Source: Podarcis gaigeae (taxonomy: Eukaryota). From it: a stretch of DNA of 64,000 nucleotides. The stretch lies in NCBI GenBank assembly GCA_964106915.2, contig OZ066923.1; one strand, 5' to 3'. This document shows, piece after piece, positions 46,901 through 55,900 of this stretch. Each line of letters begins with the position of its first letter. Position 1 is the stretch's first letter. The position numbers are program-made.

Positions 46901-49900
46901 AGGAGAAATTCATAATTTTATCTGGAAGGATAAAAAGTTGAGGATAAAATTAAATATGCTGTTTATCCATAAAGAGAAAGGAGGTATTTCTTTTCCTAAC
47001 GTAATAGCCTACCTTTTTGCAAACTGTTGTTGTGTACACCTGCCTATGCCTTAATGGGAATGTATGTTCATGCAACAACCATCAAATTGGATGGGGGGGT
47101 CCATCAATGAACAATAGCTAAAAATATAGCCTGATGGATTCTCAGGTAAATAATGCATGTCCAGGGCAAAGTAAATACTGTAGAAAATGGTATGTGTATA
47201 ACAACAAATCATAAAACAAGTGCCCAGTGCTGTATCATTTTGCTTTCATCTCATGGAAACCATGCAACTCACTCTTAAATTAAGTTCACTGAATGGATTC
47301 TGTTAAGTTGTGGGTGAACATATCAGACGACACAGCGATTCTTCAAACAGCTCTTGTTTATTCACAGGCCAGAACAGAACTGAACTGAAGGGTTCAGTCA
47401 GCCTGCTTATATAGAGCTCCAGTACAATGTAACTGTAACAATTTTCTAAAACTATCCAATCACTGAACGTCACTTTCGATCCCTTATTTGCATAACTATC
47501 TACAGTATCCCCCTGCTGACCCAGGGTGAGAACTTCAGTACATAACAGATTCCATTTCATGAGAACATAAGAATAGCCTGCTGGATGAGTCCCATGGCCA
47601 AACTAGTCCAGCATTTTCACAGTGGCCAATTAGGGAAACCAGCCTGTGGTAAACCAGGGAGTAGAGCATGAGCACCAAAGCACTCTCTCCTCTTGTGGCT
47701 TCTAGAAACTGGCATTTGGTGGCATTGCTGTCTCCAGCTGTGGATTTAGAGCACAGCCATCATGGCTGGTAGCAACTGATAGCCCTCTCCTTCATGAATT
47801 TGTCTAAACCTCTTTTAAAGCCATCCAAGTTGGTGGCCATCAGTGCCTCCTAGAGGAGGGAAAATAAGTTAGATGGCTGATTTTGGAAAGGGGTGTATTA
47901 AAAAGAAAAAATAATGCTTGCTGAGGAACAAGTAGTTTTTCAGTTGATCAAGAAATTGGTGGCAAATGTAGCACAGCGTGCACATAGACAGAGGATAACT
48001 AAAAAGGTCATTTTTGTGGTTTGTAAAAGGAGCCATGTGGACAAGAATACTTCAGTGGTCCCTGTTGTTTTTGCAGAGTCTTTTACGCAGTGGAATGATG
48101 AGCAGTACGTGCCACATACTTTACTTTACTTTATTTACACTTCAATGCTAAGAGCTTACAAACAAGCATCTTGCCTCTGCGTGAGCAGAGAAAACATCCA
48201 CTCTCCTCTGAAGCATGGAGAGAACAGAGAAAAACAGGAAACCAGTGTACGTCACATCCAGTCTCCTTTCCCGTGAGAAACTCCAACAGCAACTCTGACT
48301 GTGGAATGTAAACATTGTCTTGTGACAAGCATTTCGCTGCACAGTGAAGAGAGCAGAAACCAACATCCTCCCCCTTTCTGTGAACATCACTGGGCAGCGT
48401 GTTCGTACAATATCAGTACAAACCCAACTTCTGCACATAGGTACAGTGTTGATCCCTTGATACAATCTTGGACAATACATCAGCAGGAATTTCATTACCT
48501 GGCATATAGGACACCGTTACGAGTCCCTTCTGAATACCTTCCCTAGCATGTTGCAACTTCAATTGCAAGTGCTTCGTGCTTTGCTTACAACCTTCAGAAT
48601 TCAGCAAAGCCAAACATGCTTTGTTGTCCTGGTAAACCTGGATTGGACATTTAACAGGAATGTTCATGTCTTTGCACAATTGTAACAACCATTCACAATC
48701 TTTAAGTGAATAAGACAGTACATTCAGTTCAGCTTCACAAGTACTTAAGCTAACTGTTGTTTGCTTCTTGCATGACCAATCAAATAGACCCTGATTGTAC
48801 ATGTAGCAAATTCCAGACGTACTTTTCCTGTCTGTAGTGTCACTTCCAAAACTTGCATCTGCAAATATCTCAAGACCACCAGACTTCTGATTGTTAAATC
48901 TCAGTCTGTAATGCATAGTGCCTTTCAAATACCGCGCTATGCATTTCAGAGCTTTCCAATCCTTAACAGTAGGATTGTTGACTTGTCTGCTTAGCAAATT
49001 ACAGCTAACAGCAATGTCAGGTCTTGAACATCTGGCAATGAAGTTTAGCTTGCCTAGCACACTTCTGTACAGTGTAGTGTCAGAAAATGCTTCTTCAGTG
49101 TCATCTACCTGATAACCTGTTGTCATCGGTGTGTCTACAGGGTTAGCATCCATCAGGTTTAGTTTGCTTAACACATCAGCAATTTTCCGTGACTGGTGTA
49201 CTAGAATGTTACCATCTTGATCTGTCTCTATTTCCAGAGATAGGTAGCTGTTTACCTCACCAAGATCTTTCATGTCAAAGTGCTCTTTCAATTGAGCTAG
49301 GGCATTATTGTACATTGTGACATCTTTCCAAAATAACAGAATATCATCAACATAAAACAAGCAATACAGCTTCTTTTGCCCCTCCTCTTTGACAAATACA
49401 CATGGATCAGCTTTCCCTTGCTGAAAACCTAGAGAAAACAATACTTCAGTGAGTTTTGTGTGCCAACACCGTGCACTTTGTTTGAGACCATAAAGGGACT
49501 TCTTCAGAGCACAAACAAATCCCTGTTTTACCTGTACACCATCAGGTGGAAGCATATAAAGTGATTCACCTAGAGATCCGTACAGAAAAGCTGTATTCAC
49601 ATCATGTATCCACATCATGGACTAATGTGAAGATTCTCCTCTGCAGCTAGCTTGAGCATAAGCCTAATGCTCTCATACCTCACTGTGGGTGAGTAGGTCT
49701 CGTGATAGTCTTCACCTGGTACCTGTGCAAAACCTCTGGCTACCAATCTGGCTTTGTGTCTGACTATCTTGCCATTTTGATCTGTCTTCGCTTTGAAGAC
49801 CCATTTGCTTCCAAGCAGTTTCATTCCTGGAACTACTGGAACAAGCTCCCATGTTTTGTTCCTTTCTAAGGAATCAAGCTCAGCCTTCATGGCATTTAAC

Positions 49901-52900: not shown

Positions 52901-55900
52901 AAGCATCTTGCCTCTGCGTGAGCAGAGAAAACATCCTCTCTCCTCTGAAGCACGGAGAGAACAGAGAAAAACAGGAAACCAGTGTACGTCACATCCAGTC
53001 TCCTTTCCCGTGAGAAACTCCAACAGCAACTCTGACTGTGGAATGTAAACATTGTCTTGTGACAAGCATTTCGCTGCACAGTGAAGAGAGCAGAAACCAA
53101 CAGTCCCATCCTTGCATGTGAAGTCCTGCATGACTCTGAAATCAGCAATTACCAGTATTCACTGTGTGGTAGCCATCCAAACGTTATCTAAAGAGTGAAA
53201 TATTTTGAAAATATCACTATGGAAATTTCACTGCTTCCAATGCAAGGGATATAGGAAATAAGTTGATTCATTATACAGAATAAGACTTGGAGAACTGTTA
53301 GATTTTTCTCTTTATAACTTTCAAAACAAATTATCAGATGGATAATGTAAACAAGAGAATACATTAGGATTTACATAGCAGGCTTCCTATGTAAGTGCTC
53401 AAAGCAGTAAATAACACAAAGATATACAGCTAATGTAAACTGCTAATGTAAACGTGACCCAACAGGGACAATTTCTCTTCCTTCAAGAACATTATTTGGC
53501 TCGTTGAAAGCTTCTCTCCAAAGTAAGTTTGATAGTGTTCAAATCATGAGCATTCACCTCTCAAATTATGAATCATTCATGACTGAATACTTTTCAGAAG
53601 CAAATTGAAATCTACACAAACCTGACAGCTGTTCCAATGGCAGTGATGAAATTTACTTGATTGGCAAAGTGTGACTATCAGATCTCTATACTCTGCTTTG
53701 TATTAGCAGTACTTCTGAGCAATATCTTTCAAAGTACGTTGGGTTAGCTGGAACTGTGAGCAGAAGAAAAACAACTGCCAGCGCTCTTCTGCAAATATTT
53801 GCCTGACAAATACTGGATGACAAGTCCATCCATGGCTAGAATAAGTTCTAGAATAGTTGTTAGGGTTCTGCTTGTGTTAAAATTTGCACAAGCAAAAGTG
53901 TGTCTTTGAGTTTGTGCAATTCTCTGATGTAAAGGGTAAAACAGTCCTTTCATGACTTGAATACTCCTTCCCCAGGTAGAAGTGTACGTCTGGATCAACC
54001 CAGTGAGAAGCACTTTTGCCTCACTCACTTAAGTGTAAGAAACTATAACTTAGCAGAGCACACCTGTTAGCATAGTGATGTTAGATCTAGTACCCAGTAC
54101 TGCTAATAACCATACCCTCTCCTCATCAAAGAGGAAACATGCAGAATGGCACTTAGATTTGGTCAGCTGATTAAGATGACTTCATCCCTGATAACTGGAA
54201 ATAAAGAATACACTGGCAAGTTTTTACAAAGCCTATCTATTCCACAATATCTCATTGCTGCACAAATTGCATGCCCATGTGCTTAAAAAAAATTATTAGA
54301 TTTCAAGGCAGCACGTTCATCAATAAGTTGAGAACGGATGTCACAAAAAGCTTCTCCTATACAGTAAAATATATACAACTATCCACAACTAAGAAGTATC
54401 CTGATAAGTAGCCCAGTGTGGGATGCAACCACGGGATGGTGTATTGGTGTAAAGAGACTTCTATTTACAAAATACACTAGATTCTTGAGTTCTGGATTCC
54501 TATCAAGCAGCTACTTTGCACTGACCAACTGATGTCAGTCATAGATATGTGTAAGTCTAACATAAGTCTGCCATAAATATGCAAACATAAACTCATGCCA
54601 GCAATAGGTCTACTTAATCTGTAACATAACAAAGGCAAGTCCAACTCATGAAAATTCTGACTAATAATTATCTGATCATTATAAGTAGTGAATGAAAATA
54701 GCCAAAGCCAGGTATTAAAGCTCATTTTTTATTAACTGGATGTAAAGAAAATGAGCTACTCATACCTCACCTCCATTCTTCTTCTCTGTGCTGCATATAA
54801 GGTTAAGCTCAATAGACAGGGTTTAAAAAAGAAAGAAAGAAATCCACTATATAAGTTTCTTTTTAACAGCATTTAAAAATCCACCTTCTTGCTAATGTTT
54901 CATTCACCTGTCACTCTAAAAATAATTCACCATCTATTTTCAGGGTTTCTATGATCAACATCATGAAAAGTATTAATTTTAAAAGCATTTCAATGGCATT
55001 GACAAATGGTATCCAAATCAATCTACTACTGAAAGCAGTAATAAAAAACAGACCACAATACCGTTGTGAATAATTTTATTTTTATCAGCACCTACAGCCT
55101 ATTATTTTCTATACTGAATTTACATTGTTCCTCTATAACTGTAGGCCTAGCAAAGTGGTGCTATCAAATTCAGCATGTCTGGATGCAATCAAAAGAATCT
55201 GAAATGTCAGAACATTTTAAATTAGATTGAATTAACATCAATGTCTTCCTAAAGGTGCCTTATACTTCCCCCTTTAGGTAGTGTAATTTCAATCAGGCTG
55301 GCCTGAACTGCAGCATAGAAAAAGCAATAAAACTATATATAAAGAACCCAATAAGTCAGGTATTCAACACAAAGTAATTTGATCAGTTTGTAGAAGTGGA
55401 TAACTTGGATATCTAACATTCACAACCCACTAACTTAAAGGCTGGAATAAGTCGATCAAAAAAGACAAAGAGTAACAAGAAAACAGAAAAAAGGCACTGT
55501 ACTGTAACATTTTCTCAAAGAATCACAAATGCCAGTGGGGTGGAGGAAAGGGGAAACTATAGTGGCAGCAAGGAAAGGATATGTTTACATGTTTTTGGAT
55601 GCTCTTAATATTTGTGATATGTTTTATTTTATTCTCAAATGTATTGTGCTACCATTTTGGTGTTTTTTGTCTCTGGGTTCCGTTGGGAGGTAGAAATTTT
55701 GAACAATGATAGCATGGTGGAAATAGCAACAGGCACAAGCCTATACCAGGGAGTTTAAGACAGTAGGTACAGATCTGAAATATTAAACTCTTACCCCCAA
55801 AAGAGCCACATCTAAATGAAAACCTTTCCTACACCGTTCAAGTTTATAAGTGCTCATCTCATGACAAAGCTCCAGTCTATTCCCTTTCACTATTCTAATG

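What the first reader, a model, noticed from the sequence alone, without database searches (positions are those of the whole stretch)
48063..53102. Young full-length Ty1/copia element in an amniote genome
Seen: complete structure, perfect TSD, and LTRs differing by only 2 substitutions in about 303 bp plus a microsatellite slip. Known: copia elements are essentially absent from mammals and birds and are minor in reptiles. Inference: a recently active lizard copia lineage, possibly horizontally acquired.
Basis: partly seen in the sequence, partly recalled or inferred. Interest (0 to 1): 0.65.

Follow-up and report, generated by a model that had tools for sequence, protein, structure and literature searches.

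The report
Defective young copia retrotransposon, lizard-type lineage
This is a real, fairly recent but already broken copy of a Ty1/copia jumping element of the kind now known to be common in lizards, snakes and tuatara, so it is ordinary, not surprising.

Summary
Window 48063-53102 is a 5,040-bp LTR retrotransposon. Its LTRs are 303 and 313 bp with TG..CA ends, and a perfect 5-bp duplication (GTCCC) flanks it. The LTRs differ by 2 substitutions and one 10-bp microsatellite slip.

The element lies on the minus strand. Pfam gives the Ty1/copia order gag, CCHC, protease, integrase, RVT_2. A 14-nt primer site matches the anticodon region of initiator tRNA-Met.

"Full-length" is right, "intact" is not. 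Against 11 uninterrupted relatives, gag-pol carries 3 frameshifts and at least 1 stop.

The closest proteins are three unnamed records (69-87% identity) and a gene model of the lizard Elgaria (58%). Everything else is at most 42%.

No result here points to horizontal transfer, and it could not be tested. The host species could not be verified either.

Verdict: an ordinary member of a known kind, of low interest.

The parts
48058..48062 (.). Target-site duplication, left copy (GTCCC)
   Evidence: Read directly. Identical to 53103-53107.
48063..48365 (-). 3' LTR of the element (left on the + strand), 303 bp, TG..CA ends
   Evidence: It differs from the other LTR by 2 substitutions and a 10-bp microsatellite indel.
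48366..48377 (-). Polypurine tract, 12 purines on the sense strand abutting the 3' LTR
   Evidence: sense strand reads AAAGGGGGAGGA next to the LTR. Its role as plus-strand primer is inferred from position.
48413..52417 (-). gag-pol coding region, ATG at 52417 to final stop at 48413-48415. Broken by 3 frameshifts and at least 1 stop. One uninterrupted ORF in relatives such as P0001 (1,338 aa).
   Evidence: tblastn with P0001 covers its residues 38-1337, with 735 of 1,317 aligned positions identical.
51875..52357 (-). Gag capsid domain (Pfam Retrotran_gag_2); no break counted in gag
   Evidence: E 3.3e-30; matches PDB 'Copia VLP protein' 8vvw, E 8.5e-9; 0 shifts and 0 stops in the gag bin.
51737..51784 (-). 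CCHC zinc knuckle (nucleocapsid part of Gag)
   Evidence: PF00098, E 6.6e-06; motif present.
51350..51577 (-). Protease domain (Pfam Pol_BBD), broken by 1 stop
   Evidence: two partial matches to the profile's two ends. (protease bin: 1 stop). One D[ST]G motif present in the region.
50344..51188 (-). Integrase (gag_pre-integrs with HHCC finger, rve/rve_3 core, SH3_retrovirus), broken by 2 frameshifts. 2 further stops were seen only next to frame junctions and only with the closest guide.
   Evidence: (integrase bin); HHCC pattern present.
49121..49860 (-). Reverse transcriptase (Pfam RVT_2), broken by 1 frameshift; YVDD present
   Evidence: two partial matches, profile 1-78 and 81-243; RT bin: 1 shift.
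48416..49120 (-). RNase H / C-terminal region of Pol; no break counted
   Evidence: 0 shifts, 0 stops. It aligns to the C-terminal 235 residues of P0001. No Pfam model matched this part, so the name is by position in copia polyproteins.
52771..52784 (-). Primer binding site: 14 nt whose + strand reads exactly as a stretch of initiator tRNA-Met that includes the CAT anticodon. It lies 5 nt from the 5' LTR.
52790..53102 (-). 5' LTR of the element (right on the + strand), 313 bp. AATAAA at sense position 231; no TATA match.
53103..53107 (.). Target-site duplication, right copy (GTCCC)

Best explanation
A single insertion, recent in relative terms, of a Ty1/copia (Pseudoviridae-type) LTR retrotransposon on the minus strand. 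It belongs to the copia lineage that persists and amplifies in lepidosaurs (squamates and tuatara), and this copy is now coding-dead.

Shown: two near-identical LTRs, a 5-bp duplication, the gag-protease-integrase-RT-RNase H order, a primer site matching initiator tRNA-Met, a polypurine tract, and no room for an env gene (53 nt separate the end of pol homology from the 3' LTR).

Inferred from established knowledge of LTR retrotransposons: an RNA running from the 5' LTR to the AATAAA in the 3' LTR was packaged by Gag. It was reverse-transcribed from a primer derived from initiator tRNA-Met that pairs through its anticodon-arm region, the 'half-tRNA' mode described for Drosophila copia. Plus-strand synthesis was primed at the polypurine tract. 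Integrase then inserted the DNA with a 5-bp staggered cut. The two LTRs were identical at that moment.

Since then the copy gained 2 LTR substitutions and a microsatellite slip. It carries 3 frameshifts and at least 1 stop in pol, either gained in place or inherited from a defective template. It cannot supply its own protease, integrase or RT.
For: Structure. Domain order and families: on 7 minus-strand ORF pieces, 5 of them with hits; for the intact relative P0001, which has the same order in one ORF. The gag piece matches the PDB 'Copia VLP protein'. The primer site is a 14-nt exact match to initiator tRNA-Met as printed in PMC8216282 and PMC8274982. The 'half-tRNA' statement for Drosophila copia is in PMC5371799 (passage). 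Polypurine tract, AATAAA and CpG values. Breaks. No nested insertion or large deletion: the P0001 alignment spans internal positions 433-4371 of 4,424 in 4 stretches. Lineage: the RT-RNase H piece is 78% identical to P0121, 69% to P0001 and 58% to the Elgaria lizard model P0003. These four group together in a neighbour-joining tree of 15 sequences, and all other relatives are at most 42%. CpG observed/expected is 0.40 in the element against 0.21 and 0.32 in the 10-kb flanks, which fits a newcomer in a CpG-depleted genome. Literature on abundance and recent activity of Copia in lepidosaurs.
Against: The host was not identified, so 'lepidosaur' rests on one named relative at 58% identity plus the literature. 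Klai et al. also report Mtanga-clade Copia in amphibians. Clade membership (Mtanga) was not tested, because no reference sequence could be obtained. Two substitutions give a wide interval: the Poisson 95% range is K 0.0008-0.0238. The age is therefore 1.3-4.1 My at assumed rates of 0.8-2.5e-9 per site per year. At the 2.1e-10 figure used for green anole in PMC7561263 it is about 16 My by my arithmetic's K. Gene conversion between LTRs could make the copy look younger than it is. Four to six breaks in 4 kb is somewhat more than 2 changes in 303 bp would predict, though not significantly so by my rough estimate. Only this one copy was seen, so nothing is known about intact copies.
Confidence: 0.85

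Rival explanations
1. The family entered this host lineage by horizontal transfer, and its youth reflects a recent invasion, not long residence.
For: The protein collections hold very few close relatives: 3 unnamed records and 1 lizard model above 50% identity, then a drop to 42% or less among 108,547 matching representatives. Klai et al. raise horizontal transfer as one possible origin of Mtanga elements in sarcopterygians (passage).
Against: Sparse hits are expected anyway, because transposon proteins of vertebrate genomes are mostly masked before gene prediction (my knowledge, not tested here). The nearest named relative is itself a lizard sequence at 58%, which looks like an old within-squamate family split. 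Copia occur in 23 of 24 squamates, all in one clade. No non-reptile donor-like sequence turned up among the 120 best hits listed in each, and few of those hits carry names.
Confidence: 0.07
2. The copy was already defective when it inserted. It was copied from a broken template and moved with proteins supplied by intact relatives, so some or all breaks are older than the insertion.
For: There are 3 frameshifts and 1-3 stops in about 4 kb, against only 2 substitutions in 303 bp of LTR. My rough expectation from the LTR divergence is about 13 substitutions, under 1 stop and 1-2 frameshifting indels.
Against: The excess is not significant with counts this small. Gag and the RNase H region are unbroken, and no other copy was available for comparison (none in the window).
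Confidence: 0.3
3. The insertion is much older than the LTRs suggest, and the LTRs were homogenised by gene conversion.
For: None directly. It is a general caveat for LTR dating.
Against: The duplication is perfect. Element CpG observed/expected is still above the flanks. The coding region aligns end to end with relatives, without large deletions or nested insertions.
Confidence: 0.05

Closest known systems
Mtanga-clade Ty1/copia elements of Lepidosauria (Klai et al. 2025, PMC11889832; Mtanga-like Copia of tuatara, bioRxiv 10.1101/867069)
   Same: Ty1/copia architecture. The only named close relative is from a lizard. The papers report that squamate Copia are numerous, in one clade, and recently amplified.
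   Different: Membership in the clade was not tested. This family is 58% identical in RT-RNase H to the Elgaria model, so it is a separate family within whatever clade holds both.
Copia insertions active in squamates: the corn-snake amel allele (5,832-bp Copia in OCA2, best Repbase hit Copia-6 of Anolis carolinensis; PMC4657000) and the 1,962 polymorphic Copia insertions of green anole (PMC7561263)
   Same: Same superfamily, similar size (5,040 against 5,832 bp), the same domain set, and signs of recent insertion.
   Different: No sequence of those elements was available for comparison. This copy sits in non-coding DNA with no visible effect, and its frequency in the population is unknown.
Drosophila melanogaster copia
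   Same: The Gag capsid domain matches the solved 'Copia VLP protein' (8vvw, E 8.5e-9). gag-pol is a single reading frame in intact relatives. The primer site pairs with an internal, anticodon-arm stretch of initiator tRNA-Met and not with the 3' end, which is the 'half-tRNA' mode reported for copia.
   Different: Distant in sequence. No Drosophila protein appeared among the listed hits. Which bases the Drosophila element pairs with was not compared here.
Plant and other Ty1/copia polyproteins (for example P0010, and the Helianthus, Brassica, Cacopsylla and Hydractinia models)
   Same: Same Pfam domains in the same order; 31-42% identity over RT-RNase H.
   Different: They lie well outside the 58-78% group that holds this element.

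Membership tests
Ty1/copia LTR retrotransposons (Pseudoviridae) | Long terminal repeats with TG..CA ends, flanked by a short target-site duplication (5 bp is usual for copia; recalled) | tested here: met
   LTRs of 303 and 313 bp, TGTTG..CAACA, GTCCC duplicated.
Ty1/copia LTR retrotransposons (Pseudoviridae) | Pol domain order protease - integrase - RT - RNase H (integrase before RT) | tested here: met
   Order on the minus strand: Retrotran_gag_2, zf-CCHC, Pol_BBD, gag_pre-integrs, rve, SH3_retrovirus, RVT_2. P0001 has the same order in one ORF.
Ty1/copia LTR retrotransposons (Pseudoviridae) | Copia-type RT (Pfam RVT_2) and copia-type Gag | tested here: met
   RVT_2 at E 1.4e-39 and 1.5e-22 on two pieces; Retrotran_gag_2 at E 3.3e-30. 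PDB 'Copia VLP protein' hit. YVDD present.
Ty1/copia LTR retrotransposons (Pseudoviridae) | Primer binding site complementary to initiator tRNA-Met next to the 5' LTR, and a polypurine tract next to the 3' LTR | tested here: met
   A 14-nt exact match to a stretch of initiator tRNA-Met printed in two papers. A 12-purine run abuts the 3' LTR. The tRNA printed is the human one; the host's own tRNA was not available.
Ty1/copia LTR retrotransposons (Pseudoviridae) | No envelope gene | tested here: met
   Pol homology ends 53 nt before the 3' LTR. No further ORF with a Pfam hit.
Autonomous (coding-intact) element | Uninterrupted gag-pol reading frame | tested here: not met
   3 frameshifts with 11 of 11 guides, and at least 1 stop.
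Mtanga clade of Copia | RT/RNase H groups with the Anopheles gambiae Mtanga reference in a tree (definition used by Klai et al.) | not testable with these tools
Supplements are closed.
Horizontally transferred element | Patchy host distribution, and element divergence far below host neutral divergence | not testable with these tools

The most novel reading that the evidence does not exclude
This family is a separate, little-sampled copia lineage: only four relatives above 50% identity turned up in collections of billions of proteins. It would have entered its host recently by horizontal transfer and would still be moving, with this copy one of many young insertions, some carried along although defective.
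Probability: 0.06. Interest if true: 0.4.

Novelty: new member of a known kind. Interest (0 to 1): 0.12.

Why it matters
It matters little beyond annotation. The copy is a clean, datable marker. Its presence or absence at this site could serve as a phylogenetic or population marker in the host. It also adds one more case to the already published picture of copia elements thriving in lepidosaurs while being lost from birds, mammals, turtles and crocodilians. The primer site pairing with the anticodon arm of initiator tRNA-Met is a neat detail. It suggests that the 'half-tRNA' priming of Drosophila copia is shared by a vertebrate copia lineage. I did not find that stated for squamate elements in the passages I read, but I did not search for it specifically.

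Tried and rejected
Host identification failed.
- 54 ORFs of at least 75 aa outside the element, the tandem arrays and the N run gave no Pfam family above its cut-off. The one match was MNSV_P7B, at E 0.0037 and below its cut-off.
- There were 0 tRNA genes and 0 Rfam matches at gathering score.
- The window's SINE gave 0 Rfam matches at E up to 1, and two strings from it occur in 0 papers.

The gag-piece search returned only 1 protein, P0383. The RT piece has 0 PDB matches at E up to 0.001.

No second copy or solo LTR of the element lies in the window.

The 118-bp tandem unit looked palindromic by eye. Its first unit folds no better than shuffles (z -0.89), so I dropped that idea.

Considered and rejected: a retrovirus or gypsy-type element (integrase lies before RT, the RT is RVT_2 type, and there is no env), and an assembly artefact (perfect duplication and ordered domains).

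I did not use the protein-atlas search, because its own text advises against use for known families or taxonomy. I did not use structure prediction, since the family assignment does not need it.
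Full report
**1. The observation**

A repeat search over 47000-54200 finds one pair of long direct repeats. Reading the ends and aligning them gives a left LTR at 48063-48365 (303 bp) and a right LTR at 52790-53102 (313 bp). Both start TGTTG and end CAACA.

GTCCC stands directly outside both ends, at 48058-48062 and 53103-53107. The LTRs differ by 2 substitutions: one A/T, and one C/T at a CpG. They also differ by one 10-bp gap, equal to two units of a 5-bp microsatellite.

No other copy or solo LTR of the element lies in the window.

**2. What it is**

The coding strand is the minus strand, so the right-hand LTR is the 5' LTR. I ran Pfam on seven minus-strand ORF pieces, each searched on its own. 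In order it gives:
- Retrotran_gag_2 (E 3.3e-30)
- zf-CCHC
- Pol_BBD (protease)
- gag_pre-integrs
- rve / rve_3
- SH3_retrovirus
- RVT_2 (E 1.5e-22 and 1.4e-39 on two pieces)

Integrase before RT, an RVT_2-type RT and a copia-type Gag define Ty1/copia. The gag piece also matches the solved 'Copia VLP protein' (8vvw, E 8.5e-9). The RT piece has no PDB match.

The CCHC, HHCC and YVDD motifs are present in the pieces. One D[ST]G motif lies in the protease region. Pol homology ends 53 nt before the 3' LTR, so there is no env gene.

On the sense strand a 12-purine run abuts the 3' LTR. AATAAA sits at position 231 of the 313-bp LTR, and no TATA match was found.

**3. The primer site**

Five bases inside the 5' LTR, the window's + strand at 52771-52784 reads as a 14-nt string. 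A full-text search finds that string in 6 papers. I read passages from two of them, PMC8216282 and PMC8274982. Both print it as part of the initiator tRNA-Met sequence, in the stretch that contains the CAT anticodon.

The element's RNA would therefore pair with the anticodon-arm region of initiator tRNA-Met, not with its 3' end. A review passage states that Drosophila copia uses a 'half-tRNA' to start minus-strand synthesis (PMC5371799). The tRNA printed in those papers is the human one. The host's own tRNA was not available, as the window holds no tRNA gene. That this pairing primes synthesis here is inference.

**4. State of the genes**

I ran tblastn with 11 uninterrupted relatives as guides, keeping each frame's stretch apart and printing counts only.
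- Frame switches: 3, with 11 of 11 guides.
- Stops well inside a stretch: 1 with 10 of 11 guides, and 2 with P0032.
- With the closest guide, P0001, 2 more stops lie next to frame junctions. These may be alignment run-on.

Binned on P0001's domain map:

| Region | Frameshifts | Stops |
|---|---|---|
| gag | 0 | 0 |
| protease | 0 | 1 |
| integrase | 2 | the 2 junction-side stops |
| RT | 1 | 0 |
| RNase H region | 0 | 0 |

The alignment to P0001 covers its residues 38-1337, with 735 of 1,317 positions identical. It shows no large deletion or nested insertion. So the copy is full-length but not intact. It cannot make its own protease, integrase or RT.

**5. Age**

K is 2/303 = 0.0066, with a Poisson 95% interval of 0.0008-0.0238. 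At assumed rates of 0.8-2.5e-9 per site per year this is 4.1-1.3 My (the rates are my assumption). At the 2.1e-10 figure used for green anole in PMC7561263, my arithmetic gives about 16 My. 'Young' therefore holds in relative terms only.

Element CpG observed/expected is 0.40, against 0.21 and 0.32 in the 10-kb flanks. That fits a newcomer in a CpG-depleted genome.

From the LTR divergence I would roughly expect 13 substitutions, under one stop and one or two frameshifting indels in the coding region. The 4-6 breaks seen are somewhat more, but not significantly so. Some breaks may have been inherited from a defective template.

**6. Relatives**

The RT-RNase H piece (401 aa) was searched three ways.
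- Word-index search, longer proteins: 1,100 hits at E up to 1e-10 among 5,209 candidates, 120 listed.
- Word-index search, similar length: 794 hits at E up to 1e-20 among 3,401 candidates, 120 listed.
- Exhaustive HMMER over 1.84 billion representatives: 108,547 at E up to 0.001, 150 listed.

Only three relatives exceed 50% identity. They are P0121 (78%, unnamed), P0001 (69%, a 1,338-aa uninterrupted polyprotein, unnamed) and P0003 (58%). P0003 is a gene model of the lizard Elgaria multicarinata webbii, fused to LINE-type domains. The next best are at most 42%.

The gag piece found a single protein, P0383 (87% over 45% of the query, unnamed). In a neighbour-joining tree of 15 RT-RNase H pieces, the window groups with P0121, P0001 and the Elgaria model. 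That group stands apart from the psyllid, cnidarian and plant copia.

**7. What is already in print**

- Klai et al. 2025 (PMC11889832; abstract and passages) found Copia in 23 of 24 squamate genomes. Squamates held 66% of the 49,920 copies detected in all the species they analysed, and the abstract names 263 metazoan genomes. [quoted passage not shown] Only the Mtanga clade occurred in Lepidosauria. No Copia were found in turtles, crocodilians, birds or mammals. Horizontal transfer is mentioned as one possible origin in sarcopterygians.
- Chalopin et al. 2015 (PMC4350176, passages): Copia are absent from mammals and birds.
- Hydrophiine snakes (PMC8872380, passages and table): Copia make up 0.47-1.65% of the genome, and are expanding and expressed.
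- Corn snake (PMC4657000, passage): the amel allele is a 5,832-bp Copia insertion in OCA2, with best Repbase hit Copia-6 of Anolis carolinensis.
- Green anole (PMC7561263, table passage): 1,962 polymorphic Copia insertions.

They may hold sequences that would settle clade membership.

**8.

Ty1/copia, full-length and relatively young: supported. 'Minor in reptiles': out of date. 'Lizard' and 'amniote': consistent with the one named relative and the literature, but not verified.

Host evidence from the window is thin:
- CpG is depleted, at 0.2-0.3 observed/expected.
- A roughly 355-bp tRNA-derived SINE has four copies.
- No host protein domain appeared in 54 ORFs.
- No RNA gene was found.

Amphibians also carry Mtanga-type Copia according to Klai et al.. 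Horizontal acquisition has no supporting evidence and could not be tested. Nothing in the window was taken for human, and no spliced gene model was involved.

**9. Verdict**

This is an ordinary, defective, fairly recent copy of a known kind of element, in the group of animals where that kind is now known to be most abundant. Interest is low. The N run at 2447-3095 was left as it is.

Noticed in passing
window 4460-4795 (+), 21362-21719 (+), 26329-26688 (-), 60493-60850 (+): Four copies of an interspersed repeat of about 355 bp, 73-92% alike. It has a tRNA-like head with a box-B-like GGTTCGAATCCC and a CCTTTACCTTTAC tail. At least two copies are flanked by short duplications, so it is a tRNA-derived SINE. 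It could name the host if matched to a repeat library. There was no Rfam match, and two strings from it occur in 0 papers.
   Followed up: partly
window 10331-12247 and 17801-19130: Two arrays (16.3 and 11.3 copies, 95% matches) of the same 118-bp GC-rich tandem repeat, about 5.5 kb apart. They account for the two GC peaks and for the long ORFs open in all frames there. The first unit folds no better than shuffles (z -0.89).
   Followed up: partly
window 1955-2196 and 56055-56305; 30636-30928 and 57836-58124; 7048-7294, 38994-39242 and 60292-60484: Further dispersed repeat pairs, 69-95% identical, of unknown family.
   Followed up: no
window 2447-3095: A run of 649 N, left untouched. The long ORFs listed across it are artefacts of the N run.
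   Followed up: no
window 58259-58867: A GC-rich stretch open in several frames on both strands, with low-complexity Gly/Pro/Arg-rich translations and no Pfam match. It may be a CpG-island-like region and not a coding one.
   Followed up: no
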